DNA of 64,000 bases, taken from sequence record NC_133255.1. The stretch is one strand, 5' to 3'. Shown here piece after piece: positions 5,321-63,579 of the stretch. This DNA is from Escherichia phage vB_EcoS-26175I. The position numbers and the translations under genes are program-made. How positions within the stretch are numbered: the first letter of the stretch is position 1; the number at the start of each line of letters is the position of its first letter. The notes under the pieces are model-generated. The model saw only the letters and a list, made by a program, of their open reading frames with translations. It made no database searches and was not told the DNA's origin.

Positions 5321-7378
5321 TTACCTTATATGGATATACCCACTATTTAGGTCTATCTTCATCTTATAGTATGCTTCAGGGTTCCCTGATAACGCAGCAT
5401 TTCTATCATAGATTATATTAACACCGATTTGTGATAAGAAGGCATTTCCTGCCACAATCTTATCCGCAGTAACAGTTCCATTAACAATCATATTGCCATG
5501 AAGAACCATTGCAGGGTTAATCCATCCAACTCCGTTCCATTGACGGGTAAATGCTGTTTGCGGAGCATTACTGTTAAATTGTGTTAGAACATCATACTTA
5601 ACCGGAGGTTTTCCAAAGTTATTTTGGAAGAATGCATTAGCTTGTCCGTCATCCCAACCACCTAGTCCAGGAATACCCATGGAGTACATCCCAGGACCAC
5701 GCTGTCCATCGTGTCCTATAGTACCTTCAGTACCACTCCACTGAACTACATCAGACCAGCTAGTACCTTCAAGAAGTTTGTTAGTAACTGGATCAAGTGT
5801 ACCTGTAGTCGCATAGATATTTTGTGTCATATCTATACGATTAGGTGGAGTTTTAGACCAGCCTGGGGGTGGATAATCTTGTTCTAATGGTTTAGCTGGC
5901 AGAGATGTTGCTAACTTATAAACAAATACTGTTTGCTTACCTTGTAAACCAGTTCCAATATCTACGTCACCATTTGGTGTTCCAATTACTACACCACTAG
6001 AGATACGCAGAGTAGTACCGTCATAACGTATCCATTGTGTGGCGTTACCAATATCTAATTTAGCTTTGGCGGAGGTATTATCCATACCCATCCAAATACC
6101 AGAGTTATTATCTCCCCAAGATTTACCTTGAGTGTAAATTGCTGGATTATCTTTACCAGACAAGTTAGTCATAATAAAGTTCGCAGCATTAATATCTCTA
6201 GTAATTACTTTACCATCAACGTTAACAACACGATTTATAGGATCGAAAGAAATAGGTGCTTTTCCTTCTTCATCTAGCAGACCAATGTTAATAGCACCAG
6301 TAGCTGCATCAATTAGGAATGTCTGTCTCCAGATTTCCCCATCTTTCATACTACCCTTAATAAAGGCATAGTTAACATCAATACCCGTCTCATTGACAAA
6401 ACTGTTATCTAGAGGAGTATCCTCATTCAGAATAAATGTTACAGGAGCTGACTCTGTTATATCCTGTTTATTTGGCCCCCAGGCAATTGATGCTACCTTA
6501 AAAGTATGTTCAACTTTCCATGGGAATGATATAATCGTTGCAGCTCTAGCAGCCCCCACGTTTATCTTTTGAGCTTTAGCCCAGCCAGTCTTAGCGTATT
6601 CTTCGGAGTTTATATAAGTAACCAAGAACTCACGAACATTAGCACCAGCACCGCGTTCCCAATCCCACTCAATTCTAACATCATATCGTTCTTTACCATC
6701 AGCAATTCGTGCAGCTTTAAAAACAATATCGATAGGTGCAGTAGGAGGAACAAAATTATAAGCTACAGTTAGAATACTAGGGAACTCATAGTAACCAGAA
6801 GAATCAACTGTAACACCATCAGGCATAGTTACTTGACCAGATATTCTGATCTTATAATCTCCGATAGGAACTCCACCAAATTTAATAGTAGAACCTAAAG
6901 CCCCAATGTAATACTTAGTCCAAGGACTATCTTCCGTGGCTGTACTTTTTAACTCAATAGTACAGTAACTTGCTTCACCAGTAGTTTCCACAACAACTAT
7001 TGGAGCGCCCACCCCAACATCCACTGGTTCTGACTCAGATCTTGCTGCAACAATTATTGGCTTCTCTTTTGTTTTAAAGTTAGTTTCATTAGAGAGGTTA
7101 ATACCAATTTTTGCATTTAAAAGTTCTGAGTCAATAATTGAGTCATAAAAAGCTCCCTGAATCTGATAGGTTGTTGAGGGAGTTAAGTTATTGATCATAA
7201 CAAAGAAAGTGTCGATTCCAGTGAAATCTCTTCTATCCACTTCTTCGCCAAGTTTAAGCCAGAATGATCTACCGATAACATCGTAGTCGGTATAGATAGA
7301 ATGCTGGATATACGCCATAGTATACCCAGTCATAATACTATTTAAGACCATCTTGGCTGGTGCATTATTCGAAATCAT
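5321..7378 (-). CDS. baseplate/central tail-tip protein (T5 pb4-like)
   Basis: 685-aa ORF directly downstream of the pb3-like gene; size and synteny match T5 pb4 (688 aa). Confidence 0.65.
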
Positions 7379-30624: not shown

Positions 30625-30676
30625 TTAATAAACCTTTTATTAATGGCGGTATATTTCAACCGCCGATTAAATTTAA

Positions 30677-32479
30677 TTATGCAAAGAATTTACCGTTTTT
30701 GAAATCAATCAAAGTACGTTGCCCGTTTGCATAGGTAATTAAATGCGTTTGCGTCCAGCTACTAGCGCCAACGTTGTAGCCCATATCAAGGGAACCAGCA
30801 ACGCCAGCGGTATAAACGCCGCCGTAAATGCTAGCCGTGTGAGTGTGACCAGTGTTAAGGCGTCCCAACTTTTTAAACTGCTTAGGGTTGCCCCGACTGC
30901 CGTTAATGCCATTGTGACCATGTACGCCGCACTCAATGCCAGCGATTTTAAATGATTGGTCAGTAGTTAAGAAAATGGCGTTAAATACACATCCTGCAAC
31001 GTAGCGAAGGGCGTAATCCAATACGTTAAAGGTATCATTCTGTTTTGCAATTGCAGAGTAAATCGCAGCGTTTAAGCTGTGGTATAGTTCGGCGTTTGCG
31101 GGGTCGTCTTTAATGTTAGCGTTACGATCATCTAGCCAGCGTGAAAGAGCTAAATCATGGTTAGATTCAACAATGATTGTTTGAGAGAAATCACGCTCCA
31201 TTGATTCTAAAACGCGTCCAGTATCGATAAGATCATCTAAAACCTTGTCACGTCCTGCGGCGTACTGTTTAGCAAGGAATACACCACTTGCGCGGTTATG
31301 ATGATTGCGGGATGTAAAATCGTGTACGTCATGGATAAACTGATATTTCGGTTTAAGAATATCAAGCAAGCTGTTTTCACTAGCCCATGATGCAACGGCG
31401 CAATCATCATCTAATTTTTCGGCGTGAATATCGCCATATTGCAAGCCTAGAACATGATCGGACGTTTCAAAACATCCGGTAGGCATAGCGCAAACATTCA
31501 AATCATAGAACATTCCGCTTTCATCCATTGTTTCAAGCTGGCGCGCAAAAAATTCGCCGTCGTCGTCAAACTCCACCAGCAAAGCGCCGAAATTATGCAA
31601 CGCCTCAGCTTTTTGACCTGCTTTCTGCTGAATGTAGTTTTTAAGTGTAGCCGTTCCAGTTGAATACATACGGCGCACTACTTCACCTTTTAACGCTGGC
31701 ACACTTTCAGCGGTGATTTTAGCGTGACCAATTGCCAGACCTTCGATATTTAAAGCGGTGGCGGTTTCTGCGAATCCTGAAAGCGGATAATCAGCCGTGG
31801 GCAAAACGTTAATTTCAGCCATGAAAGCAAAGCGGCGGTTATTTAAAAATACGTTTTTATCACAAACATATTTATCAAATGCGGGATCGTATTTAATACC
31901 GTTTGCACCTTCCCCGTTCTGGAATCCATTTTTATTATAAATGAATTTACTGATTAGCAATTCAGCGCCGATATATTCAGCGAATTTTTCCAGACTTGCT
32001 AAAAAGTTTTTATGCGGGAAAGTATTATTTTGAACCGACGTTAGAATAAAACGGCGACCGGATTTAACTTCCCATTGTTCAACGGTACTAGAAACAATTC
32101 CCGCCGCTTCTGGACGATCATCATTTTTAATCGCCTTTTCAGCTTTTGCCGCTTTCGGTTTCGCTGGCTTATTTGCTTCCAGCCAGTCACAAATTGCGGT
32201 CGAATGTTTCGGCGTATCATAAACAGCTTTTGAAATATCGTCGCAAACTTCCAATTTAGTAGCGCGTAAACGCTTACCATAGAAATTAAAATCAGCGGCC
32301 ATTTTCAAAATTTGAGCTTGTTTTTCTGCGGAAATATTCATAACTAAATCAACTCCTATAAAGGGATAAATATTAATACTGGCAATATTGCCAAATATAA
32401 TGCCTTGCCCGAAGTGGGGACTTTTAAAGGCATTATAATTTGCAACATTATTCCGATAAAATAAATTGCACTTGTTCAA
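30677..32479 (-). CDS. A1: A1-like pre-early protein, calcineurin-like metallophosphoesterase
   Basis: 600-aa ORF; phosphoesterase motifs GDIHAEKLDDD and GHTHTASIYGG; position next to dmp and A2-like gene. Confidence 0.7.
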   Translation of the reverse strand: MNKCNLFYRNNVANYNAFKSPHFGQGIIFGNIASINIYPFIGVDLVMNISAEKQAQILKMAADFNFYGKRLRATKLEVCDDISKAVYDTPKHSTAICDWLEANKPAKPKAAKAEKAIKNDDRPEAAGIVSSTVEQWEVKSGRRFILTSVQNNTFPHKNFLASLEKFAEYIGAELLISKFIYNKNGFQNGEGANGIKYDPAFDKYVCDKNVFLNNRRFAFMAEINVLPTADYPLSGFAETATALNIEGLAIGHAKITAESVPALKGEVVRRMYSTGTATLKNYIQQKAGQKAEALHNFGALLVEFDDDGEFFARQLETMDESGMFYDLNVCAMPTGCFETSDHVLGLQYGDIHAEKLDDDCAVASWASENSLLDILKPKYQFIHDVHDFTSRNHHNRASGVFLAKQYAAGRDKVLDDLIDTGRVLESMERDFSQTIIVESNHDLALSRWLDDRNANIKDDPANAELYHSLNAAIYSAIAKQNDTFNVLDYALRYVAGCVFNAIFLTTDQSFKIAGIECGVHGHNGINGSRGNPKQFKKLGRLNTGHTHTASIYGGVYTAGVAGSLDMGYNVGASSWTQTHLITYANGQRTLIDFKNGKFFA

Positions 32480-32681
32480 TTACCGAAAGAATAAGCGCGG
32501 TAATAATAAAGAATCTAGCCAGCCATAAGGCGCTATTTTGAGACTGTAAAAGCCATTTAGTATTTGTAACACTAATTGCTTTATTAGCGTATTCAAGGCA
32601 AAGTGAACCGAATTTATATTCTAGAGTATAGAATAATGCCGCCATGAAATAACAAGCTAGAACTATATAAATGTTAATCAC
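32448..32681 (-). CDS. small membrane protein
   Basis: 77-aa ORF with two hydrophobic segments; 3' end overlaps A1 start. Confidence 0.4.
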   Translation of the reverse strand: MINIYIVLACYFMAALFYTLEYKFGSLCLEYANKAISVTNTKWLLQSQNSALWLARFFIITALILSVIEQVQFILSE

Positions 32682-32730
32682 TAAATTCTCCTTTAAGGGA
32701 TAGCGGGGAATAATCCCCGCTAATTAAAAT

Positions 32731-33147
32731 TTATTCACCTGCGGCCTGTTTTACTTCCTCCGCTACGCCTAACAATTGCGCTACGGCTTCCAGCGTTTCA
32801 AGTTTTGCACTTTCCAAACTTGCCAGATCATCGGCATCTTTAATAACGCCAGCATCAATGGCATGTTTAGCCATAACGCGCACATAGTGAGCTTTACGGA
32901 TTGAGCTACCGCCGCCAACTTTGCGAGGCTTGTCGCTTTTCTGATACGCTTTCGCGCTGGTCAGTTTAGAACGTACAGACACTGGACTAGCAGCGCCAAC
33001 GGCGGCGGCAATTTCTTTCAGGCCGTCACTGTTAGCAAATTCAATTCCGCTTTTAGCGACCATTTCAGAATACATAGAAACAGCTTTTTCGGTGTTTTCT
33101 TCGTTCCAAGAGAATTTTGCGGTTTTTTCGGTTTTAACGTTAGACAT
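32731..33147 (-). CDS. A2-like pre-early protein (putative)
   Basis: 138-aa ORF (GGAG RBS) immediately upstream of A1; assignment by size/synteny only. Confidence 0.45.
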   Translation of the reverse strand: MSNVKTEKTAKFSWNEENTEKAVSMYSEMVAKSGIEFANSDGLKEIAAAVGAASPVSVRSKLTSAKAYQKSDKPRKVGGGSSIRKAHYVRVMAKHAIDAGVIKDADDLASLESAKLETLEAVAQLLGVAEEVKQAAGE

Positions 33148-33454
33148 AGTTTAATACTCCATTCAATTATTAATTAAGGGATTATGATTAACTAAATGTT
33201 AATCGCTATATATTCTAATTAGATAATTAATATTACCGCTTTCGCTTAGACAATTAATTATTTAATACAGCTAGAATATATAACGGAAACATTTTATTTT
33301 TATTTCCTATTTAATGCCTTTTAGCGGCGACATTGTATATATACGCTGTCGATCTGATCACTATTACCCCATTCGACGGGAATCGTTAACGCTAGATTAT
33401 TCGAATCATCGTTATAGCCTGATTAAGCGTGATATGTTTAGTTACTACCGCTTA

Positions 33455-33706
33455 TTATGCGATAGCTTGCCATTTATCTTCCTTTTGAATGACCTTTACA
33501 ACGTCGCCAGATTTAACGCGAACGTTATAAATTGGCTTGCCGTTGTTACTGCGTTCCGTTTCAGCGTATACCGCTTCGATTTTATCGAAAGGAACAAGCG
33601 CCGCACCTTTAATACGTTCGGCTTTTCCGGTTAATTCATCCGTTTTAGTAACAAAAGGAATGAATACAGATTGACCTACTTTCGGCGCGGTAATAACGTT
33701 TTGCAT
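33455..33706 (-). CDS. hypothetical pre-early protein
   Basis: 83-aa ORF. Confidence 0.4.
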   Translation of the reverse strand: MQNVITAPKVGQSVFIPFVTKTDELTGKAERIKGAALVPFDKIEAVYAETERSNNGKPIYNVRVKSGDVVKVIQKEDKWQAIA

Positions 33707-33870
33707 TTTTAATACTCCGGTTTATTGGGGATTATTCCACAATAGCGCCTCGATACTTTGAAACGCTATTAGATTATAATCCGCTAGGAGTTAGCCTAAA
33801 CATTACCGTTATCCAAATTGTTAAAGAGCAGTTACTACGGGGAACATCTTAAAACCTATCGGCTAGCGTG

Positions 33871-34089
33871 TCAAGCGTTTTTTAAACTTTTTTCGATTTG
33901 ATGGGAGTTATATAAATCAATCATTATATTACGCCACACCATTTCCAGACCTTGCTGCTTGCCTTTCTTGTATTGCTTGAATCGGTATTTTACCGATCGT
34001 TGCGCTACTGTCAACAAATTTTTTGTTCTGCTATCTAATGCACTAGCAGGTTTCGCACTAATCACTAAAGCGTTTTTTGATTTGATCAT
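33871..34089 (-). CDS. hypothetical basic protein
   Basis: 72-aa ORF, Lys/Arg-rich; first minus-strand gene next to the divergent control region. Confidence 0.4.
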   Translation of the reverse strand: MIKSKNALVISAKPASALDSRTKNLLTVAQRSVKYRFKQYKKGKQQGLEMVWRNIMIDLYNSHQIEKSLKNA

Positions 34090-34465
34090 TATCGTCGATT
34101 CCTTATATTATATAAGTTTACCGCCGATAGGCTTTAAGATGTTCCCTAGTTTTTAAAGAGCGCGGCGGTAAACTTTCCCGCCGTGTAGTTCGTCATTGCC
34201 GCCCTACGTGATAAATAATAGGAGAATACCGAGAAGGGCGCAACCTTATTTTTGTAAAGAAACGTAAAGACAAACGCCACTGCACCACGTCCAGCGGCGC
34301 ACTAAATTTAATGAAACGGGCGCGCGAATAACACCAAAACAACCATTTTAGCAAGTAATTTTCTCATTTATATTTGCTTTGCCCTACTTGACAAAATCTA
34401 AAATCCTCGTGGTGAGGTTTTCTCGGTGTACCCCTTATGATTGCCTATCTTTTCCTTTGAGGCGC

Positions 34466-34492
34466 TTAGAATGCGTTACAGAGCGTTTTAGA
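34466..34492 (+). repeat. 27-bp direct repeat TTAGAATGCGTTACAGAGCGTTTTAGA (left copy)
   Basis: Identical 27-mer at 37806-37832; partial inverted copy near 34962 and partial direct copy near 38912. Confidence 0.9.
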
Positions 34493-34537
34493 CCCTGTTA
34501 ATAACTTATACAAAAAGCAAAAATGAAATTTAATGAG

Positions 34538-34546
34538 TTATCCACT
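34538..34546 (+). promoter_or_regulatory. DnaA-box-like 9-mer TTATCCACT (8/9)
   Basis: One mismatch to TTATCCACA. Confidence 0.4.
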
Positions 34547-34821
34547 TGATTTTTCAAAAAAGTATTTTCTGCTATTATTTTTCATTGACAAATAAGTTTA
34601 GACGTGCATTGATTGGTTAGCAGACTAACAATCGCTAGGATGATAATCACGCTGGTGGATTGTAACAGCTGAAACAGTTAGCAGACTATTAATACTCTAG
34701 AAACCTGTTAGCCAACTAACTATTTCATATTATATAATATACATATAAATTAATAAGAAATAATAACTATAAGAAACTATCAGCTAAGTGAGAACCACTA
34801 TCATTTAGGTTATTCACAAAG

Positions 34822-34830
34822 TTATCCACA
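34822..34830 (+). promoter_or_regulatory. DnaA box TTATCCACA
   Basis: Perfect match to the E. coli DnaA box consensus. Confidence 0.6.
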
Positions 34831-34870
34831 GCACAAAATAACTTGACGCAATAGGCGACGTTTTGGCGAC

Positions 34871-34879
34871 TTATCCACA
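34871..34879 (+). promoter_or_regulatory. DnaA box TTATCCACA
   Basis: Perfect consensus match, 40 bp from the previous box. Confidence 0.6.
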
Positions 34880-34899
34880 GACTTATATACAGGTTATCC

Positions 34900-34919
34900 T
34901 ACTGTATAAATATACAGGG
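34900..34919. promoter_or_regulatory. LexA (SOS) box-like palindrome TACTGTATAAATATACAGGG
   Basis: CTGT-N8-ACAG palindrome, core CTGTATAAATATACAG identical to right-hand copy at 37865-37880. Confidence 0.5.
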
Positions 34920-35166
34920 TAAATAGGTAGCAGTAACAACCGCAATCAAATTTAAGCGGCCTAGAACGCATTCTAAGCGATTTTCTCACTGCTACCCTTA
35001 TTATAATAAAGCCTTGTGTACGCTTACAGAGAGCTAGAAATAGAAAACGCGCGGTTATCATAAAAACAGGCAGTAGGCAAGGAATAAAAAACCTTTTCTT
35101 TTTTCTTGCCCCTAGCGAACAATTATCTATATCATTCACTCACCGATTAACGAGGGAGACAAAGAA

Positions 35167-36168
35167 ATGTCTACTGTAAGAATTGCAGTACCAGCAAACG
35201 CCACTATTATTAAGGGTAGTTTGCGCAACCTGCTAGACGGATCAAGTCCAGCAAGCCTACAACATACGGCGGCAATGGTTGAAAAGATTCACGATGATAT
35301 TTTAGATAATAATGATACTCATTATTGTTTAAGTGATTTCACACAACTACTAGACCCTACCCGCGTTCTAGTGCTTTACAACCGTGACTATCACATCATG
35401 CGAAATCAGCGGGGAAGCGATATTGATTTTATCATTGTAGGTCACGACGAAAAAAGCTATATTGCCCGTGGTTACAATGTACAAGAAAAGGAAATGGTTT
35501 TCGCTACTCGCGTAAATGGTATTAATTCCAGCGATGTAGAAGATTTACTATCTAGTATTTGGGGCGAATTGACAAGCGCCATTAAACGTGCTGATAGTGA
35601 CGCAATCGAAACAACTGGCGTATTGTGTTTTGAACGCGCTAGCGGTAACATGTTGATCCCTAACGATTATTTAGAGTATGGGAATGAATCAAACGTTGCA
35701 AACGCTGGATTTACACTTTTACCGCTTGACAATGTAACAAAACAGGCTGTAAGATCTAACACTCAAACTTCAAGCGCAAATGCGCAAACTACTGAAAATA
35801 AAGGAAATATTATGTCTAAAGTATCTTCTATCGTTGCTGCTAACAAATCTGCTGTTGTAAACGCTGCTAAACTGGAAGCGGGTAAAATTGCACTGACTCA
35901 AATCACAAAAGTAGCGGCGAAAAAAGCACCGTTTATGATTAAAGGGTATATTGATACGCCGATTGGTCGTGTAGTGATCGCTAACCTGCTGAGTGTAGCG
36001 GTTGACCAGTACGCCCCGACTAATGCGAAAGCGAAAGCGGTAGCAGGCGCGGCAATGGAAGCAGCAATGCTGGAAATGGTGCAGAGTTTCAATATTGCTG
36101 AAATGATCGATGAAATGGTAAAAGGCATTGACATTTCTACTTTTACCACTAACACCGAAAGCGAGTAA
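35167..36168 (+). CDS. hypothetical two-domain protein (first gene of plus-strand operon)
   Basis: 333-aa ORF, GGGAG RBS; N-terminal ~200 aa domain, Thr/Ser/Gln linker, Ala/Lys-rich C-terminal domain; no motif I recognise. Confidence 0.6.
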   Translation: MSTVRIAVPANATIIKGSLRNLLDGSSPASLQHTAAMVEKIHDDILDNNDTHYCLSDFTQLLDPTRVLVLYNRDYHIMRNQRGSDIDFIIVGHDEKSYIARGYNVQEKEMVFATRVNGINSSDVEDLLSSIWGELTSAIKRADSDAIETTGVLCFERASGNMLIPNDYLEYGNESNVANAGFTLLPLDNVTKQAVRSNTQTSSANAQTTENKGNIMSKVSSIVAANKSAVVNAAKLEAGKIALTQITKVAAKKAPFMIKGYIDTPIGRVVIANLLSVAVDQYAPTNAKAKAVAGAAMEAAMLEMVQSFNIAEMIDEMVKGIDISTFTTNTESE

Positions 36169-36194
36169 TAAATAGTCTAATGTAAAGTTTTGTA

Positions 36195-36223
36195 AAGGTC
36201 GCCCTAATCGGCGGCCTTTTTTG
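36195..36223 (+). terminator. putative rho-independent terminator/attenuator after first operon gene
   Basis: GC-rich hairpin followed by TTTTTT, then a TATAAT hexamer. Confidence 0.4.
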
Positions 36224-36287
36224 TTATAATGCCTTTACACCGAAACGGTGGACTGAAAATTTTCCCTAATTTCTAGGAGGCGTTAAA

Positions 36288-36437
36288 ATGGTTATTTTTC
36301 GATCTATTCTGGCTAGTATCTTGGGCGCTATTTTATCCTTGTTTGTAATAGCTTTCGGCGTTCACGTGGTTATTATTGGAGCAGGTATCGCGGGGTTTTC
36401 TTACTTGTTAGGCTGTATGACTGGTAAAGGGGAATAA
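36288..36437 (+). CDS. small membrane protein (49 aa)
   Basis: ATG with AGGAGG RBS; hydrophobic throughout (ILASILGAILSLFVIAFGVHVVIIGAGIAGF); below ORF-track size cutoff. Confidence 0.5.
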   Translation: MVIFRSILASILGAILSLFVIAFGVHVVIIGAGIAGFSYLLGCMTGKGE

Positions 36438-36439
36438 AA

Positions 36440-36652
36440 ATGTTAAAGAATGTTTCCCTTGCCCGTTCCAAAGGTTTTAAGCTGGTGGATGTTAACACGT
36501 TCGAGCGTCCAGATTGTAAAATCGAATATGTAGCACGCAACAAAAACGCTTTCCGTGTTACAGAAAAGAAATTTGACAAGCGCGGCAATTTGGTAGCCGA
36601 AACGGTCAAACACTTTGCCACCTTTTACGCTGCATTTCGTGGGGTATTATAA
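36440..36652 (+). CDS. hypothetical protein
   Basis: 70-aa ORF, basic. Confidence 0.45.
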   Translation: MLKNVSLARSKGFKLVDVNTFERPDCKIEYVARNKNAFRVTEKKFDKRGNLVAETVKHFATFYAAFRGVL

Positions 36653-36759
36653 TGGAAAGGGCAATTGTTAAAATGTTAACTTTTGTTTGTGGCGTGTCTA
36701 GTGCTACTCTGTTGATCACGCTAGTGATTATGATTATCCGTGACGCGAGGATCTTTTAA
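36652..36759 (+). CDS. small membrane protein (35 aa)
   Basis: Start overlaps upstream stop; single TM segment. Confidence 0.35.
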   Translation: MERAIVKMLTFVCGVSSATLLITLVIMIIRDARIF

Positions 36760-37103
36760 TGGTAATTTATGAGGGCAATCGTTTTGTTACTAATTGCCGT
36801 CCGGCATTATTAGCAAACTATTTAAATCAGCTTTCACCAGTTTATAAAGGCGTAGTTAATATCTATGAGGGCAAAGCACATTATAAGATTAATGCCATTG
36901 TTGCCCGTGAACTAGCGTTTCAATTTTTAACTTTCGGGTCTTGTGACGTTCAGGTTATGGGGGAAGCGTTAATAGCAGAAAATGAAAATGAATTTATCGA
37001 CATTTTCCGCAAAGTATATACAGAGCGCCTGATTATGAAAGGCGCGTATATTCAATCAACCGCTGAAAGTATCGAAACAGCGTTTCGAAAGGTGGCGCAA
37101 TGA
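36759..37103 (+). CDS. hypothetical protein
   Basis: 114-aa ORF; ATG overlaps previous stop. Confidence 0.5.
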   Translation: MVIYEGNRFVTNCRPALLANYLNQLSPVYKGVVNIYEGKAHYKINAIVARELAFQFLTFGSCDVQVMGEALIAENENEFIDIFRKVYTERLIMKGAYIQSTAESIETAFRKVAQ

Positions 37104-37285
37104 CTAGAAATGAAGCTGTTAAAGCTATGTTAGAAGGTAAAAAAGTAACTCATCGTTATTTTTCCATGCATGAATATTTATTCATGAAATATGAAGTGAT
37201 CACCACGGAGGATGGTTATAAATTTAATCATGAATTTTATAGCCGTGAAATGTTTAATGATGGCTGGCAGCTTTATTATGAATAG
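37100..37285 (+). CDS. hypothetical protein
   Basis: 61-aa ORF; ATGA overlap with upstream gene. Confidence 0.45.
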   Translation: MTRNEAVKAMLEGKKVTHRYFSMHEYLFMKYEVITTEDGYKFNHEFYSREMFNDGWQLYYE

Positions 37286-37415
37286 CTGGTGGCGTAAAAC
37301 GCAAAGTCACAAATCTAATAATACCGCTGGGAATGTTTCCCAGCGTTTACGATTTGGTAATGGCTTTACAATGATATTGATAATCATTCTCATTCTAGGA
37401 GCGATGGCGTTATGA
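37277..37415 (+). CDS. small membrane protein (46 aa)
   Basis: Internal start of ORF 37212..37415 overlapping upstream stop; C-terminal TM segment FTMILIIILILGAMAL. Confidence 0.35.
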
Positions 37416-37507
37416 GACTATATATTTTCGTGGGTAATATTAAGCCTGCTAATGATCCCAACGGTGGCGACAATATCCGCCGCTATTTTCAACAATACAT
37501 CTATTAA
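37412..37507 (+). CDS. small hypothetical protein (31 aa)
   Basis: ATGA start/stop overlap with upstream ORF; AGGAG 10 nt upstream. Confidence 0.3.
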   Translation: MRLYIFVGNIKPANDPNGGDNIRRYFQQYIY

Positions 37508-37522
37508 TAACGGGGCGTTACT

Positions 37523-37717
37523 ATGAGTGATAAAATTGTTATTCGTAAAACTAGTGTTACCGTGGATACATTCTATGTAGAAGATACAAAAGAAAACCGC
37601 GCAATTTGTGAGAATCAAGAGTATGACAAACTTATATATGATGAGTATGGTTACTACACTAATCTAGTAGATTCCTACGGTGAAAGCGTAGAGTTCTCCC
37701 ATCAAATACCGGACTAA
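37523..37717 (+). CDS. hypothetical acidic protein (last gene of plus-strand operon)
   Basis: 64-aa ORF followed by hairpin terminator. Confidence 0.45.
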   Translation: MSDKIVIRKTSVTVDTFYVEDTKENRAICENQEYDKLIYDEYGYYTNLVDSYGESVEFSHQIPD

Positions 37718-37723
37718 TAATAA

Positions 37724-37752
37724 CGGGGCGCAACTATCGGCCCCGCCTTTTC
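37724..37752 (+). terminator. rho-independent terminator ending plus-strand operon
   Basis: Hairpin CGGGGC-N10-GCCCCG followed by CCTTTTCT. Confidence 0.5.
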
Positions 37753-37805
37753 TGGCCTTCCTCAAATTTTCCCTTATTAAAATACCCCCTCCAAAAATAA
37801 ACGCG

Positions 37806-37832
37806 TTAGAATGCGTTACAGAGCGTTTTAGA
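37806..37832 (+). repeat. 27-bp direct repeat TTAGAATGCGTTACAGAGCGTTTTAGA (right copy)
   Basis: Identical to 34466-34492. Confidence 0.9.
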
Positions 37833-37862
37833 GCTATATTAGAGTTATTCACCACGCAGGAA

Positions 37863-37882
37863 TACTGTATAAATATACAGTA
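37863..37882. promoter_or_regulatory. LexA (SOS) box-like palindrome TACTGTATAAATATACAGTA
   Basis: 19/20 match to TACTGTATATATATACAGTA. Confidence 0.5.
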
Positions 37883-37890
37883 GAATAACC

Positions 37891-37911
37891 TGTTGATAAG
37901 TCTGTTGATAA
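37891..37911 (-). promoter_or_regulatory. two tandem DnaA-box-like 9-mers TGTTGATAA
   Basis: Each is one mismatch from TGTGGATAA (reverse complement of TTATCCACA); copies at 37891-37899 and 37903-37911. Confidence 0.4.
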
Positions 37912-37963
37912 CGCCTCAAAATCGCTAGGATTTTGTCAAGTCAAATCGTGCTGTTAATAAACC

Positions 37964-37972
37964 TGTGGATAA
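37964..37972 (-). promoter_or_regulatory. DnaA box (TGTGGATAA, reverse orientation)
   Basis: Perfect reverse-complement match to TTATCCACA. Confidence 0.6.
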
Positions 37973-38015
37973 CTTAAATAACAGTGTTTCTCACTTCCCT
38001 TTCTAAATGCAAATC

Positions 38016-38150
38016 ATTCTCATTATGCGACTCATTCGCATTCAACTCTGTAAATGATAACCATTCTCATTCCGCTTTCTAAACGCGAATCATTCTCATT
38101 CGCATTCAACTTCTCAAATGCGAATCAATCTCATTATCATTCGCATTTCG
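38016..38150. repeat. degenerate tandem repeats built from CATTCTCATT and CGCATTCAAC units
   Basis: At least five copies of (A)ATCATTCTCATT.CGC and three of TCGCATTCAAC(T)TCT within 135 bp. Confidence 0.7.
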
Positions 38151-38179
38151 GCAGGCAGGGCATTTTCATTTTTGCCCTG

Positions 38180-38790
38180 CGCTTTTGTGCAAATCCGACA
38201 TTTGCCCCCACGGATTACGTGCCAGCGTGCATGTGCGAATCCGACAATTTTTGGTAGTGTGCAAATCCGATGGGAAATATTTTTTATATGTGCGAATCCG
38301 ACAATGAATTTTCCTAAAAACTCCAGCAATCAACAACTGCGATGCAATCCAGCTGGATTTACTAGAATATGTGCAGATCCGACAAGTGTTAAGGTGTGCG
38401 AATCCGACAAGATTTTTGTGACTTCGATGAGAGGGTGTGTGATTGTGTGAGTTTGGGGAGAAGTGCGAATCCGATGAGATTTTGGGAGGAACTACGGAAG
38501 GAGCAGCGGTGTTGGTGCTTCAGCACCGGTTTGCTGCGTTTTTGGGGATAATGTGGGATGTTTTGGCTAGAATTGAGATTAGGGGAGATAAAGCGAAATT
38601 TTATTAGCAAAATGGGGCAGAATAGCTTGACAAGTGAAAATTCCTGTGGCTCTAAAAACTCAGGCAAATATGGGCCTTCGGCCCGAAATAATGCTGCTAT
38701 TTTCAGTGTTCCTAAAAACTTTGGAGACTCCTATCAATGTGCAAATCCGACCATAAATTTCTAGAAACATAATGTGCAAATCCGATAGCA
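38180..38790. repeat. iteron-like array: at least 9 copies of GTGCRAATCCGAYR with irregular spacing
   Basis: Copies near 38190, 38233, 38270, 38291, 38372, 38397, 38463, 38740, 38773, each followed by AT-rich tails. Confidence 0.8.
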
Positions 38791-59010: not shown

Positions 59011-59191
59011 AATTGAAATCTCTAGTTATCCCTTTCGTAGGGGCTAAAGGGCGATACCCATCCTAAAGACTTCAATTGTGGCGGCTCTCCGAAACTCATC
59101 ACACTAACAACTAGTTGATTACTTCTGGATTCTCGCCCAGAAAATTCTCTAGAAAGGTGCACCGTTACTCTTTGAGCCATTGAATATCAAG

Positions 59192-59300
59192 AAGTAGAAG
59201 GACTCGAACCTTCACGAGATAGACCATTTATCTCAGCCTCGTTTTCGGGTATCTTATGAGGAGTGGATGTTCCCCTTACGCCCTTTAGGAAGCCCCGTCT
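59192..59300 (-). ncRNA. tRNA-like element, unresolved (~107 nt)
   Basis: Contains a canonical T-arm (GAAGG-TTCGAGT-CCTTC) and a Leu/Tyr-type D-arm (GCCGGAATCGGTAGACGG) closed by a 6-bp terminal stem GAAGTA/TACTTC, but I could not place a canonical anticodon arm. Confidence 0.4.
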
Positions 59301-59305
59301 ACCGA

Positions 59306-59395
59306 TTCCGGCATACTTCAAGATTTGGCAGAAGATAATGGAGTCGAACCATCACCGTATCACTACAGCGGGCCGGTTTTCAAGACCGGTTACGT
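59306..59395 (-). tRNA. tRNA-Ser (anticodon TGA), long variable arm
   Basis: Hand fold: acceptor AGAAGAT/ATCTTCT, anticodon stem CCGGT/ACCGG loop CTTGAAA, 19-nt variable arm, T-arm GATGG-TTCGACT-CCATT, CCA encoded. Confidence 0.75.
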
Positions 59396-60815: not shown

Positions 60816-61080
60816 AGATATTCCTTCTAGTTTACTAAGGCTATTAGCTCGGTGTGCGTATTACCCTCAGACATTAGCCAGTAGAGGATAACCGCTCTTC
60901 ACAAACCCGATACACTATTCAGTTGCCGCTGAATCTAGTGGACTAATCTAGAACTTATTGCAAAGTATCCCCTGCCATTAGGGGTCTAATTGCAATTGTG
61001 CTTTTTGGCAGCCAGTCCTAGGTCGAGCTAATACCTTAGTGAACTTTGATGAGGATTTCTCCTCATCAATTTATATAAAT

Positions 61081-62498: not shown

Positions 62499-62749
62499 AT
62501 GAGTTTTTAATAAATTTACTTATTGCGTAGGCCACCTCACGCTTCAAACGCTCTGCTGACAAAGAAGTTTGCGAGACTTCTCTTAAATGCCAGAATAGAC
62601 CCGCCGATCTATCGGAACCTACTCAATAAGTAAACTTTCGTTTACCTACACCTACCTGGTCGGGAGGATTTTCAGCGACTAGAACCGGCCGGAAACTCAT
62701 CGCCTTGTTTATCTAGGAGTCCGTTCTCTAGGAAGCAGAAACCTAAATT

Positions 62750-62823
62750 TGGTGCGGTCGGAGGGAATCGAACCCTCAACTTCTGGTTGGCAACCAAAAA
62801 TTATACCTTTTAACTACGAACGC
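62750..62823 (-). tRNA. tRNA-Gly (anticodon GCC)
   Basis: Hand fold: T-arm GAGGG-TTCGATT-CCCTC, anticodon stem TTTGG/CCAGA loop TTGCCAA, CCA encoded; one acceptor mismatch. Confidence 0.7.
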
Positions 62824-62961
62824 ATAATAAGTCAATCTAGGCAGGACTTGAACCTGCTATCACTTGTGCGGATTTACGAGAACCATTCTTTCACTCGAAT
62901 CGAACGAGCTTCTACCCTCGGCAAGCTGGTGTCCCCTCTCCACCACGCTAGAATGTTTAAT
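62824..62961 (-). ncRNA. two tRNA-like elements, unresolved (138 nt)
   Basis: Two T-arm signatures (GCAGG-TTCAAGT-CCTGC and GCTCG-TTCGATT-CGAGT) between tRNA-Gly and tRNA-Lys; no canonical 7-bp acceptor stem found for either; terminal complementarity CTAGATT/CTAGAAT spans the whole element. Confidence 0.35.
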
Positions 62962-63039
62962 TGGTACACCTGCTGAGATTCAAACTCAGGATCTTCCGAT
63001 TAAGAGTCGGTTGCTTTAAGTCAACTAAGCTACAGATGC
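62962..63039 (-). tRNA. tRNA-Lys (anticodon CTT)
   Basis: Hand fold: acceptor GCATCTG/CAGGTGT, D-stem GCTT/AAGC, anticodon loop CTCTTAA, T-arm CTGAG-TTTGAAT-CTCAG, CCA encoded. Confidence 0.65.
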
Positions 63040-63579
63040 ATTTATATCTTTATAGGACTTACCAGCCAGTCTTGTATAGCGTTTTCGCAAACCATTATCT
63101 GACATGCCCAATTCTCTAGAAGCTCTAGACCATGAGTAATTTTTAACCCAGTACTCTATTTGTTCTACAGTAATTTCTTGTGGATTTTGACAGTGCTGTT
63201 TGCAGTAACTAGCTCTTTTAGCTATTTCTTTGTTGCAAATAGGACAGAAATTTTTATCTGAACTTAATCCACGTTCTTCTATAGTTTTGAGAATATGATC
63301 AGCTTTACTTCGTACAATCAGATTTTCAAGAGAGAAATTTAGTTTATTTGTATCATCATGATCTACTTCTAAGTCAGAACTCAAAGATGGTAGATCTTTG
63401 TATACTCTCGCTAATACTCTGTGTAATAGAAGATGTTTTGATTTTCCATTATGTTGAACAGTAAAGAAAGGATACCCAGAAGTATTAATCTGTATTGAAA
63501 GTATACGATTAACTTTAGTACTAAATACTTCCCCAGTCTCACTTATTAAGTATTCTGGATATTCGGGTATTTCTTTCAT
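63025..63579 (-). CDS. HNH homing endonuclease
   Basis: 184-aa ORF; HRVLARVY...EVDHDDTNKLNFSLENL HNH motif, C-terminal CPICN..C..HC zinc motif and HTH-like tail; 3' end overlaps tRNA-Lys. Confidence 0.75.
   Translation of the reverse strand: MKEIPEYPEYLISETGEVFSTKVNRILSIQINTSGYPFFTVQHNGKSKHLLLHRVLARVYKDLPSLSSDLEVDHDDTNKLNFSLENLIVRSKADHILKTIEERGLSSDKNFCPICNKEIAKRASYCKQHCQNPQEITVEQIEYWVKNYSWSRASRELGMSDNGLRKRYTRLAGKSYKDINASVA

What the first reader, a model, noticed from the sequence alone, without database searches (positions are those of the whole stretch)
62824..62961. Two adjacent tRNA-like elements lacking canonical acceptor stems
Two clear T-arm signatures lie in the 138 nt between tRNA-Gly(GCC) and tRNA-Lys(CTT), but neither yields a 7-bp acceptor stem at the expected distance. 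End-to-end complementarity (CTAGATT with CTAGAAT) instead spans both. Possibly tRNA pseudogenes, permuted/split tRNA-like RNAs, or a structured processing element within the polycistronic tRNA transcript.
Basis: seen in the sequence. Interest (0 to 1): 0.5.

Follow-up and report, generated by a model that had tools for sequence, protein, structure and literature searches.

The report
T5 RNA2: one tRNA-shaped RNA
The two "tRNA-like elements" are one 122-base gene for the tRNA-shaped stable RNA that phage T5 records call RNA2: a transfer-RNA body whose anticodon loop is replaced by a conserved 55-base folded module, so it cannot read codons, and its function is still unknown.

Summary
Window 62833-62954 (minus strand) is the ortholog of "RNA2, tRNA-like stable RNA with unknown functions", annotated in T5 (AY543070) and BF23 (NC_042564). 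It is 91% identical to BF23 rna2. It is left unannotated, or called a CDS or tRNA-Arg, in most of about 436 phage records.

Comparison of 55 relatives gives a clear fold:
- a 7-bp acceptor stem (one U·U mismatch in this phage);
- a D-arm;
- a 5-bp anticodon stem;
- a 4-nt variable loop;

All five tRNA-type helices covary strongly (covariation score 0.80 against 0.18 in shuffles).

The module is more conserved than the scaffold. It also occurs in T4-like Acinetobacter phages and in uncultured phage contigs of 310-363 kb. No Rfam family covers the window's element.

Only 6 of 55 members encode CCA, against 353 of 386 neighbouring tRNAs. No stable anticodon exists. I read it as a non-decoding tRNA mimic that is cut out by tRNA-processing enzymes.

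The entity is already known. The fold and the family range appear undescribed in what I could search, and the function remains open.

The parts
62833..62954 (-). Whole RNA2 ortholog, 122 nt from acceptor position 1 to the discriminator G. The BF23/T5 annotation adds 1 nt at the 5' end and 3 nt at the 3' end, which corresponds to 62830-62955.
   Evidence: CM R1 hit of 135.8 bits, E 2.3e-31. 91.3% identity to BF23 rna2 over 125 nt. GenBank misc_RNA rna2 in NC_042564 and AY543070.
62948..62954 (-). Acceptor stem, 5' strand, ATTCTAG.
   Evidence: Pairs with 62834-62840. All 7 pairs show double-sided changes across 55 relatives.
62927..62945 (-). D-arm: TGGTG / GAGAGGGGA / CACCA. The loop carries the GG.
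   Evidence: All 5 pairs covary, e.g. TGGTT/AACCA, TGGCT/AGCCA, TGACT/AGTCA.
62922..62926 (-). Anticodon-stem equivalent, 5' strand, GCTTG.
   Evidence: Pairs with CAAGT at 62862-62866. All 5 pairs covary, e.g. CCCAT/ATGGG, TCGCT/AGCGA, CTCGT/ACGAG. Rfam's tRNA model aligns the same stem in relatives.
62867..62921 (-). 55-nt module in place of the 7-nt anticodon loop: CCGA-GGGTAG-AA-[T-arm 1]-GAAAGAATGGTTC-T-CGTAA-ATCC-GCA.
   Evidence: Most conserved part of the family: invariant GGG, G, GTTC.ATTC, GG, CGTAA, TCCGCA. In relatives, Rfam's tRNA model places a 51-56 nt insert exactly in the anticodon loop.
62914..62917 (-). P2, 5' strand, GGGT. Pairs with ATCC at 62870-62873.
   Evidence: G-C 55/55, G-C 55/55, G·U 53/55. 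Fourth pair U-A 25, C-G 10, unpaired 20. Support is moderate only.
62911..62912 (-). P3, 5' strand, GA. Pairs with TC at 62878-62879.
   Evidence: G-C 55/55. Second pair U-A 20, A-U 13, G-C 12, U·G 2, C-G 1, other 7. This pair was found by mutual information and was not part of the model that made the alignment.
62893..62909 (-).
   Evidence: The stem covaries, e.g. TACGG/CCGTA, GTTGG/CCAAT, TTCTG/CAGAT; the loop TTCGATT is nearly invariant.
62883..62885 (-). Conserved YGG (TGG) in AATGGT, flanked by a short GAA/TTC mini-stem. Proposed D-loop-like partner of T-loop 1.
   Evidence: GG is invariant in 55/55, with a flanking A-U pair in 43/55. The tertiary role is inferred, not shown. RNAalifold proposes an alternative AUG/CGU pairing here.
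62874..62877 (-). GUAA bulge between P3 and P2.
   Evidence: CGTAA is invariant in all aligned members.
62862..62866 (-). Anticodon-stem equivalent, 3' strand, CAAGT.
   Evidence: See the 5' strand.
62858..62861 (-). Variable loop, GATA.
   Evidence: Relatives carry the textbook AGGTC here, e.g. L101 and L089.
62841..62857 (-). T-arm 2, the true T-arm of the scaffold: GCAGG-TTCAAGT-CCTGC. It is directly followed by the acceptor 3' strand.
   Evidence: The stem covaries, e.g. GGAGG/CCTCC, ACAGG/CCTGT, ATTGG/CCAAT.
62834..62840 (-). Acceptor stem, 3' strand, CTAGATT, with a U·U mismatch at pair 2-71.
62833..62833 (-). Discriminator G, followed by ACT rather than CCA.
   Evidence: Discriminator across the family: A18, T17, G12, C8. 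CCA is encoded in 6 of 55 members.
62955..62961 (-). 7-nt spacer ATTAAAC after the CCA of tRNA-Lys(CTT).
62824..62832 (-). 9-nt spacer ACTTATTAT before tRNA-Gly(GCC).

Best explanation
Window 62833-62954 (minus strand) is one gene. It is the ortholog of phage T5/BF23 RNA2, annotated as a tRNA-like stable RNA. It sits in the polycistronic tRNA cluster between tRNA-Lys(CTT) and tRNA-Gly(GCC).

Shown here: the RNA keeps a complete tRNA scaffold. This comprises a 7-bp acceptor stem, a D-arm with GG, a 5-bp anticodon stem, a short variable loop and a canonical T-arm stacked on the acceptor. Its 7-nt anticodon loop is replaced by a conserved 55-nt module. The module consists of helix P2 (GGGU/AUCC), a GUAA bulge, a 2-bp helix P3, a second canonical T-arm, and a conserved UGG segment.

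Inferred: the intact acceptor/T minihelix lets RNase P and the 3' tRNA-processing enzymes cut the RNA out of the tRNA transcript and stabilise it. In effect this is a natural 'tRNA scaffold' carrying a cargo domain. The UGG segment probably docks on T-loop 1 as D-loop G18-G19 docks on the T-loop in tRNA. That would give a second elbow-like knob at the position where the anticodon should be.

The RNA cannot decode, because it has no anticodon loop and the flanks of the insert are variable. It is probably not aminoacylated, because CCA is rarely encoded and the discriminator varies. My best guess for function is a tRNA mimic that binds a widely conserved tRNA-body-recognising or elbow-recognising component of the host translation or tRNA-processing machinery. 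I rate that at only about 0.35. A decoy for an anticodon-loop nuclease seems less likely, because the loop such nucleases cut is exactly what is missing.
For: Identity:
- 91.3% identity over all 125 nt of BF23 rna2.
- GenBank features 'RNA2, tRNA-like RNA with unknown functions' (NC_042564) and 'tRNA-like stable RNA with unknown functions' (AY543070; also AY692264).
- The gene order matches BF23: rna2, then tRNA-Gly, then RNAIV.

Fold:
- On 55 relatives, 93.6% of cells are paired against 59.6% in shuffles.
- The covariation score is 0.796 against 0.178 in shuffles (0 of 500 reach it) and 0.05-0.13 when partners are slid by 1-3 columns.
- Every pair of the acceptor, D and anticodon stems shows double-sided changes.
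- RNAalifold recovers the same helices on its own.
- The P3 pair was not in the model and covaries: UA 20, AU 13, GC 12.

tRNA scaffold:
- Ordinary tRNAs hit the same model end to end with the insert deleted, at 34 bits or less.
- Rfam's tRNA model passes its gathering threshold on relatives L101 (50.6 bits) and L089 (47.9 bits), with a 51-56 nt insert in the anticodon loop.

Not decoding, not charged:
- The nucleotides flanking the insert differ between close relatives: CCGA, GCGA, GCTA, GCT, TCGA, GCTT.
- CCA is encoded in 6 of 55 members, against 353 of 386 neighbouring tRNAs.
- The discriminator varies: A18, T17, G12, C8.

Cargo logic:
- The module sequence is nearly invariant while the scaffold sequence is freely replaced.
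- Every genuine module occurrence found in the pattern scans lies inside a tRNA-type scaffold; the remaining pattern matches lack the module and look like chance.

Range: Demerecviridae of Escherichia, Salmonella, Yersinia, Erwinia, Pectobacterium, Enterobacter, Serratia, Providencia and Proteus; T4-like Acinetobacter phages; uncultured phage contigs of 310-363 kb.
Against: No expression data were examined here. 'Stable RNA' rests on the depositors' annotation.

The nearest-neighbour energy of the proposed fold for the window sequence (-25.6 kcal/mol) is worse than the MFE (-32.4). The interval as a whole folds no better than shuffled sequence (z = -0.05). The fold therefore rests on comparative evidence.

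P2 has only one variable pair, and that pair is unpaired (U·U) in 20 of 55 members.

The UGG/T-loop 1 contact is inference, and RNAalifold offers a competing AUG/CGU mini-helix.

Alignment A4 was fitted to the model's structure and leans towards it.

No conserved protein neighbour points to a partner.

The RNA lies inside the 30661-38625 deletion of the viable strain T5Mos, so it is dispensable in the laboratory (PMC11464382).

The host CCA-adding enzyme could still add CCA after transcription, so lack of charging is not proven.
Confidence: 0.8

Rival explanations
1. It is an interrupted but functional tRNA gene. On this reading the ~50-nt insert is an intron-like element that is removed, or tolerated, to give a decoding tRNA.
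For: Rfam's tRNA model accepts relatives L101 and L089 as tRNAs with a 51-56 nt insert in the anticodon loop. The scaffold keeps the acceptor, D, anticodon-stem and T features. ARAGORN called the 5' 70 nt of the KKP_3711 homolog tRNA-Arg(CCG).
Against: The residues left after removing the insert give no constant anticodon. Among close Demerecviridae with the same scaffold the 5' flank reads CCGA, GCGA, GCTA, GCT, TCGA or GCTT, and it lacks a conserved U33 and purine 37. About 50 nt is too small for a group I intron, and no intron or ribozyme family matches. The insert is more conserved than the supposed exons. CCA is encoded in 6 of 55 members, against 91% of neighbouring tRNAs. The depositors list the full 125-nt species as the stable RNA.
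Confidence: 0.07
2. It is a cis-acting structured punctuation or processing element of the polycistronic tRNA transcript. It would recruit RNase P or 3' nucleases to help mature the neighbouring tRNAs, with no function of its own in trans.
For: It lies within tRNA arrays with tRNA-like spacers of 7 and 9 nt. It is dispensable in the laboratory. There is no selection for CCA.
Against: A processing signal would not need a nearly invariant 55-nt module with its own T-arm across unrelated phages. Several relatives have no tRNA within the DNA held for their locus, e.g. W16/L027, L038, L054, L101, L108, L111 and L129. It is annotated as an accumulating stable RNA.
Confidence: 0.08
3. It is two decayed tRNA pseudogenes, or a recombination scar between tRNA genes, with no function.
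For: tRNA finders fail on it. There are two T-arm motifs. There is a U·U mismatch in the acceptor stem. The thermodynamic z-score is unremarkable.
Against: Compensatory changes occur in every helix. The element is conserved in 436 phage records and in distant phage lineages. The mismatch variant alone is shared at 99% identity or more by 127 records.
Confidence: 0.02
4. It is a decoy or sponge specifically for an anti-phage tRNA anticodon nuclease, such as a PrrC-, PARIS- or PtuAB-type system. This is a narrower version of the mimic idea.
For: T5 tRNAs are known to counter tRNA-cleaving defences (PMC11464382; bioRxiv 10.1101/2023.03.15.532788). The RNA is tRNA-shaped and cannot be cut at an anticodon loop.
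Against: The anticodon loop that such nucleases recognise is the part that is missing. The PARIS-suppressing T5 fragment reported (31885-32870) ends before rna2 at 32959. The module is conserved across hosts whose defence repertoires differ, which points to a universal partner.
Confidence: 0.1

Closest known systems
Phage T5 / BF23 RNA2 (gene rna2), 'tRNA-like stable RNA with unknown functions' in GenBank AY543070, AY692264 and NC_042564
   Same: It is the same gene. Identity to BF23 rna2 is 91% over 125 nt. The place in the tRNA cluster is the same, upstream of tRNA-Gly(GCC) and RNAIV as in BF23. The length is the same.
   Different: This phage has G14-C24 and other D-arm substitutions and a U2·U71 mismatch in the acceptor stem. 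It also has tRNA-Lys(CTT) plus an HNH-motif ORF inserted upstream. The source-like record MK907268 does not annotate the RNA.
Canonical elongator tRNA (Rfam RF00005)
   Same: Acceptor stem of 7 bp, D-arm with GG, 5-bp anticodon stem, short variable loop, T-arm with the GTTCRANYC loop, and tRNA-like spacing in a tRNA operon. Distant members pass Rfam's tRNA threshold.
   Different: The anticodon loop is 55 nt instead of 7, with no anticodon, U33 or R37. There is no encoded CCA. Position 8 is C. The window copy gets no RF00005 hit even at E<=10 and no ARAGORN call.
Engineered 'tRNA scaffold' for recombinant RNA expression in E. coli, in which the RNA of interest is inserted into the anticodon stem of a tRNA (method as described in PMC3753655)
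   Same: The architecture is the same: a tRNA body with the anticodon loop replaced by a structured cargo, relying on tRNA-processing enzymes for excision and stability. This is an analogy drawn from the architecture established.
   Different: This one is natural, phage-encoded and evolutionarily conserved. Its cargo is a specific T-arm-containing module of unknown function. Processing was not tested here.
tmRNA tRNA-like domain
   Same: An acceptor/T-arm minihelix whose anticodon arm is replaced by an extension carrying other structure.
   Different: There is no mRNA-like reading frame and no pseudoknots. The pair 3-70 is not G·U (UA 15, CG 14, GC 9, AU 8). CCA is not conserved. ARAGORN's tmRNA search finds nothing in the window. 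Rfam tmRNA gives only 15-nt T-loop fragments in relatives.
Bacterial Y RNA-like YrlA (Rfam RF02553), a tRNA-mimicking ncRNA
   Same: A non-decoding RNA with a tRNA-like T-arm/D-arm elbow, also found in some phages (PMC4201824, listed).
   Different: There is no RF02553 hit in the window. A relative gives only a sub-threshold 23.8 bits against a gathering score of 69, and that match only partly overlaps the element. The ends here form a tRNA acceptor stem rather than a Ro-binding helix. No Ro/Rsr context was seen.
Phage T4 species 1 and species 2 RNAs (rnaC, rnaD)
   Same: Small stable RNAs of unknown function, of similar size (139 and 119 nt), encoded at the end of a phage tRNA cluster.
   Different: They are not homologous by this test. 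The family covariance model hits only the T4 tRNAs, not rnaC or rnaD.

Membership tests
T5/BF23 RNA2 (tRNA-like stable RNA) | Sequence homology to annotated rna2 over its full length | tested here: met
   BLASTN gives 91.27% identity over query 1-125, window 62955-62830, E 2e-46. CM score 135.8 bits.
T5/BF23 RNA2 (tRNA-like stable RNA) | Same position and strand in the tRNA gene cluster | tested here: met
   BF23 order is rna2, tRNA-Gly2, RNAIV, P13a, tRNA-Pro. Window order is the element, tRNA-Gly(GCC), an RNAIV homolog at 62524-62622, a promoter-like site at 62498-62470, and tRNA-Pro.
T5/BF23 RNA2 (tRNA-like stable RNA) | Accumulates as a stable ~125-nt RNA in infected cells | not testable with these tools
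   This rests on the depositors' annotation only. No RNA data were available.
Canonical tRNA | 7-bp acceptor stem adjacent to a 5-bp T-stem with a GTTCRANYC loop | tested here: met
   ATTCTAG/CTAGATT (6 of 7 pairs) is adjacent to GCAGG-TTCAAGT-CCTGC. All pairs covary in the family.
Canonical tRNA | 7-nt anticodon loop with U33, an anticodon and purine 37 | tested here: not met
   The loop is 55 nt. Its flanks vary between close relatives and lack U33.
Canonical tRNA | Detected by tRNA finders or Rfam RF00005 at threshold | tested here: not met
   ARAGORN finds none. There is no RF00005 match even at E<=10 in the window. Two distant family members do pass, as insert-containing tRNAs.
Canonical tRNA | 3' CCA, encoded in this phage's other tRNAs | tested here: not met
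   The discriminator G is followed by ACT. 20 of 21 window tRNAs have CCA. Across the family the figures are 6 of 55 members against 353 of 386 tRNAs.
tRNA pseudogene(s) | Neutral decay: no compensatory substitutions and patchy conservation | tested here: not met
   Covariation score 0.796 against 0.178 in shuffles, with 26 of 31 pairs showing double-sided changes.
Permuted or split tRNA | 3' half encoded upstream of the 5' half, or the halves on separate transcripts | tested here: not met
   The arms are colinear with a standard tRNA.
Group I intron-containing tRNA | Intron of about 200 nt or more with a group I core, inserted in the anticodon loop | tested here: not met
   The insert is about 48-55 nt. 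There is no intron or ribozyme match in Rfam at E<=10 (window) or E<=1 (relatives).
tmRNA | tRNA-like domain with G3·U70, plus a tag reading frame and pseudoknots | tested here: not met
   ARAGORN finds no tmRNA. The 3-70 pair in the window is U-A. The total length is 122 nt.
YrlA / Y RNA-like | Match to RF02553 and a Ro-binding terminal helix | tested here: not met
   No hit in the window. A relative scores 23.8 bits against a gathering score of 69.

The most novel reading that the evidence does not exclude
RNA2 may be the founding member of an RNA class not found in Rfam 15 or in the open literature I could search. In this class a tRNA scaffold has its anticodon loop replaced by a sequence-invariant module of about 50 nt: helices P2 and P3, a GUAA bulge, a second T-arm and a UGG loop. 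The module would fold into a second tRNA-like elbow. The resulting 'double-elbow' RNA is shared by unrelated phage lineages, namely T5-like siphoviruses, T4-like Acinetobacter phages and uncultured phage contigs of 310-363 kb. It would target a universal elbow-reading machine such as the ribosome, RNase P or a tRNA-modification or quality-control enzyme. Other inserts in tRNA scaffolds were seen in the same kind of locus: T5 rna1, L109 1967-2098, L038 8968-9094 and L112 5111-5225. These hint that phages may use tRNA bodies generally as expression scaffolds for small functional RNAs.
Probability: 0.35. Interest if true: 0.75.

Novelty: already known. Interest (0 to 1): 0.45.

Why it matters
Phage-encoded tRNAs are now known to act as countermeasures to tRNA-cleaving bacterial immunity, yet the non-decoding tRNA-like RNAs in the same clusters have no assigned function. 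This work shows three things. First, RNA2 has a precise, strongly covarying architecture. Second, its conserved part is the module that replaces the anticodon loop. Third, the same module is kept in phages of very different hosts.

Together these turn a vague annotation ("tRNA-like, function unknown") into a defined RNA family with testable predictions: processing by RNase P, no aminoacylation, a second elbow, and a conserved host partner.

There is also a practical use for annotation. Most of about 436 phage records either miss this gene or mis-call it as a hypothetical CDS (for example phiR2-01 g056) or as tRNA-Arg(CCG) (KKP_3711).

Tried and rejected
1. Single-sequence folding of the interval gave an MFE of -34.1 kcal/mol with z = -0.05. 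It did not recover the comparative fold and was not informative.

2. My first reading was a tRNA-Arg-like 5' half (stem CAGCY/GGTTG, loop NCG) joined to a second tRNA fragment, that is, a partial duplication. I dropped it once distant relatives showed that the 5 nt after the D-arm pair with the 5 nt after TCCGCA, which is the true anticodon stem. The apparent 'NCG anticodons' are parts of the conserved module junctions.

3. I considered a YGG/CCG pairing (AATGG with TCCGCA). I set it aside in favour of P2 (GGGY/RUCC) and P3, because the P3 pair covaries.

4. Homology to T4 rnaC and rnaD: no model hit.

5. A conserved neighbouring protein: none was found. One Acinetobacter phage has an RF-1-domain gene downstream, but this is not general.

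6. MAFFT alignments of diverse members misaligned the 5' third and shifted T-arm 1 by one column. I used a covariance model to realign them.

7. Broad pattern scans:
- The genome-contig scan gave 21 hits, of which only 2 are real (L059, L078).
- The metagenome scan gave 55 stretches. Those that failed the covariance-model threshold and were inspected (L093-L134 subset) are chance matches in other sequence.
- A looser viral scan gave 59 new loci, of which only 3 are real.

8. Literature searches for a published structure or function of T5 RNA2 in the held library found nothing beyond GenBank annotations and the T5 deletion-mutant data. The older T5 stable-RNA papers from the 1980s, which I recall from my own knowledge, are not in the library.
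Full report
**What is there.** The window is a T5-like phage. The 401 bases around the finding are 100% identical to Escherichia phage vB_EcoS-26175II, MK907268. Its tRNA cluster runs on the minus strand; ARAGORN finds 21 tRNAs. The finding's interval, 62824-62961, lies between tRNA-Lys(CTT) at 62962-63039 and tRNA-Gly(GCC) at 62750-62823. ARAGORN predicts nothing in the interval. Rfam 15 gives no match there even at E<=10.

Read on the minus strand, the interval holds two textbook T-arms: GCTCG-TTCGATT-CGAGT at 62893-62909 and GCAGG-TTCAAGT-CCTGC at 62841-62857. The outermost 7-mers, ATTCTAG (62948-62954) and CTAGATT (62834-62840), pair in 6 of 7 positions.

**Conservation.** The 131-nt core matches 436 phage records, 416 of them over at least 80% of its length. 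It often matches as an isolated block even where the flanking tRNAs differ. Most records annotate nothing under it. Some place a "hypothetical protein" over it, for example g056 of Yersinia phage phiR2-01. Enterobacter phage KKP_3711 annotates its first 70 nt as tRNA-Arg(CCG), and ARAGORN reproduces that call.

I fetched divergent copies from Yersinia, Erwinia, Pectobacterium, Enterobacter, Salmonella and Acinetobacter phages. Pattern scans of IMG/VR, GTDB genomes and JGI metagenomes added more.

**The fold.** Laying the sequences side by side showed that the acceptor pairing is kept while its sequence is completely replaced. Examples are AGACAAT/ATTGTCT in Erwinia phage KEY, TACGGGG/TCCCGTA, GATTGAA/TTCAATC, GACTTTG/CAAAGTC and CTAGTGT/ACACTGG.

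The decisive point is the anticodon stem. The five nucleotides right after the D-arm always pair with the five right after the invariant TCCGCA:

| Source | 5' strand / 3' strand |
|---|---|
| window | GCTTG/CAAGT |
| T5 | ACTTG/CAAGT |
| My1 | GCCAT/GTGGT |
| L037 | CTCCA/TGGAG |
| L038 | CCCAT/ATGGG |
| L046 | TCGCT/AGCGA |
| L059 | CTCGT/ACGAG |

This helix is followed by a 4-5 nt variable loop (GATA here, the classic AGGTC in several relatives), then the second T-arm, then the acceptor 3' strand. The molecule is thus one tRNA-shaped RNA.

**Statistical support.** I built a covariance model on this structure and searched the held loci.
- The window element scores 135.8 bits (E about 2e-31).
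- All true relatives score 35-142 bits at full length.
- Ordinary tRNAs hit the same model end to end at 34 bits or less, with the insert deleted. This shows the scaffold is genuinely tRNA-like.
- T4 rnaC and rnaD are not hit.

On the 55-member alignment:
- 93.6% of cells are paired, against 59.6% in shuffles.
- The covariation score is 0.796, against 0.178 in shuffles (0 of 500 reach it) and 0.05-0.13 for slid partners.
- Every pair of the acceptor, D and anticodon stems shows double-sided changes, as do 4 of 5 pairs in each T-stem.

RNAalifold recovers the same helices independently. The alignment was fitted to the model, so it leans towards the structure. However, the helices were first seen in unaligned sequences. 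One further pair that was not in the model emerged from mutual information: the nucleotide after GGGYWG pairs with the nucleotide 5' of CGUAA (UA 20, AU 13, GC 12).

Thermodynamics alone does not favour the fold. It scores -25.6 kcal/mol against an MFE of -32.4, and the interval has z = -0.05. That is not unusual for tRNA-like RNAs held together by tertiary contacts, but it is a weakness.

**The module.** Window 62867-62921 reads CCGA-GGGU-A-GA-A-[T-arm 1]-GAAAGAAUGGUUC-UC-GUAA-AUCC-GCA. Its parts are supported to different degrees.
- Helix P2 (GGGU/AUCC). Two pairs are invariant G-C, one is G·U in 53 of 55, and the fourth pair is U-A 25, C-G 10, unpaired 20. Support is moderate.
- A GUAA bulge.
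- Helix P3, 2 bp. One pair is invariant G-C and one covaries.
- T-arm 1, whose stem covaries and whose loop UUCGAUU is almost invariant.
- An invariant GG in A-Y-G-G-U, flanked by a weak mini-stem.

I infer that the UGG docks on T-loop 1 as G18-G19 docks on the T-loop in tRNA, giving a second elbow. That contact is not shown, and RNAalifold proposes a competing AUG/CGU mini-helix.

The module is far more conserved in sequence than the scaffold. Every genuine module occurrence found in the pattern scans lies inside a tRNA-type scaffold. The remaining pattern matches lack the module and look like chance hits in unrelated sequence.

**Identity.** GenBank already names this gene.
- NC_042564 (BF23 tRNA gene region) has misc_RNA rna2, 5701-5825, "RNA2, tRNA-like RNA with unknown functions". 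This coincides with the model hit at 5704-5824.
- AY543070 (T5) has rna2, 32959-33083, "tRNA-like stable RNA with unknown functions".
- AY692264 (T5 st0) has the same feature.
- AY587007 (T5, ATCC strain) leaves it unannotated.

BF23 rna2 aligns to window 62830-62955 at 91.3% identity over all 125 nt. The local gene order is that of BF23: rna2, then tRNA-Gly(GCC), then RNAIV, then a promoter, then tRNA-Pro.

The T5Mos strain lacks 30661-38625, which includes rna2, and is viable. The RNA is therefore dispensable in laboratory E. coli (PMC11464382).

**How it probably works.** What is shown is the scaffold, the replacement of the anticodon loop, and the conservation pattern. Several lines bear on function.
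- Rfam's own tRNA model passes threshold on two distant members, L101 at 50.6 bits and L089 at 47.9 bits, with a 51-56 nt insertion in the anticodon loop. The RNA therefore derives from a tRNA.
- It cannot decode. There is no 7-nt loop, and the residues bordering the insert change between close relatives that share the same body: CCGA, GCGA, GCTA, GCT, TCGA, GCTT. They lack U33 and R37.
- It is probably not charged. CCA is encoded in only 6 of 55 members, against 353 of 386 ARAGORN tRNAs in the same loci (20 of 21 in this window). The discriminator is A18, T17, G12, C8. The 3-70 pair is not G·U.
- The strictly kept 7-bp acceptor plus 5-bp T-stem is what RNase P, RNase Z/BN and the CCA-adding enzyme read. 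That is established tRNA biology and was not tested here.

I therefore infer that the RNA is cut from the polycistronic transcript like a tRNA and is stabilised by its tRNA body. This is the same principle as the engineered "tRNA scaffold" used to express recombinant RNAs in E. coli.

The module's invariance extends across phages of Enterobacterales, Acinetobacter and uncultured hosts, and includes contigs of 310-363 kb. That points to a universal host partner rather than a lineage-specific defence system. My best guess is tRNA mimicry aimed at a machine that reads the tRNA body or elbow, at roughly 0.35. A decoy for anticodon nucleases is less attractive, because their target loop is absent.

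**Rivals.**
- An intron-containing functional tRNA is unlikely, at about 0.07. There is no constant anticodon, the insert is too small for group I, the insert is more conserved than the "exons", there is no CCA, and the full-length RNA is annotated as the stable species.
- A purely cis-acting processing element is possible, at about 0.08, but it does not explain the invariant module or the copies with no tRNA in the DNA held around them.
- Pseudogenes are excluded by the covariation.

**Verdict.** The finding is real and is correctly flagged as tRNA-like. It is one RNA, and it is the already-annotated T5/BF23 RNA2. What appears to be new is the explicit fold, the recognition that the conserved unit is a module replacing the anticodon loop, the contrast in CCA encoding with neighbouring tRNAs, and the occurrence outside T5-like phages. 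I found none of this in Rfam 15 or in the searchable literature. The older T5 papers are not in the library, so I cannot exclude that the secondary structure was drawn before.

Noticed in passing
window 59179-59322 (-): Homolog (80.7% identity over 144 nt) of BF23 rna1, 'tRNA-like RNA with unknown functions'. It has a tRNA-Leu-type D-arm (GGAATCGGTAGAC), a long variable-arm hairpin (GAGATA-AATGGTC-TATCTC) and a canonical T-arm, but a large insert in the anticodon region. This is a second tRNA-scaffold RNA with a different cargo in the same cluster.
   Followed up: partly
window 62524-62622 (-) and 60899-61033 (-): Homologs of two other annotated T5/BF23 'stable RNAs with unknown functions': RNAIV (89% identity, just downstream of tRNA-Gly) and part of RNA2H (78.5%). 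No homolog of BF23 RNAI, RNAIII, rna3 or RNAX was found in the window at E<=1e-5.
   Followed up: partly
window 63025-63579 (-): A 184-aa ORF with an HNH-nuclease-like motif (EVDHDDTNKLNFSLENL). Its 3' end overlaps the first 15 nt of tRNA-Lys(CTT). Neither this ORF nor tRNA-Lys(CTT) is annotated upstream of rna2 in T5 or BF23, which suggests a homing-endonuclease-associated insertion. No domain search was run.
   Followed up: partly
L024 401-470 (Enterobacter phage KKP_3711); L025 386-532 (Yersinia phage phiR2-01 g056): Likely mis-annotations of the RNA2 homolog in public records. One is a 'tRNA-Arg(CCG)' that uses the internal T-arm and has no pairing acceptor 3' strand. The other is a 147-nt 'hypothetical protein' CDS lying over the RNA. 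Many other records carry 'hypothetical protein' over it.
   Followed up: partly
L112 5111-5225; L109 1967-2098; L038 8968-9094 and 9119-9229; L090 1367-1490: Other RNAs of 110-130 nt in distant phage contigs hit the tRNA-scaffold part of the model weakly (21-25 bits). They carry unrelated or only partly related inserts in the anticodon region. L112 5111-5225 has a nested T-arm plus AATTGGT but lacks CGTAAATCCGCA. This suggests phages use tRNA bodies with inserts repeatedly.
   Followed up: no
L027/L040 (Acinetobacter phage vB_AbaSt_W16) and L039 (a 159,801-bp viral contig that I take, from memory and unverified, to be Acinetobacter phage 133): These Acinetobacter phage copies keep the module but have a degenerate scaffold. 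The D-arm is shortened or absent, the acceptor pairing is poor, and in W16 the motif reads GACCATA instead of TCCGCA. In W16 the RNA lies immediately upstream of a 76-aa 'RF-1 domain peptide chain release factor' gene.
   Followed up: partly
L109 1300-1373 and 2473-2546: The metagenomic contig carrying a family member also encodes tRNAs with CTA and TTA anticodons (amber and ochre suppressor types). This hints at a phage that recodes stop codons.
   Followed up: no
L129, downstream of 382-502: One family member is followed by an ORF that, by eye only, resembles a GatB/YqeY-domain protein (MIDEIQKRIVEAMKEGNKELVSVLRDIK...). This is a single case and no domain search was run.
   Followed up: no
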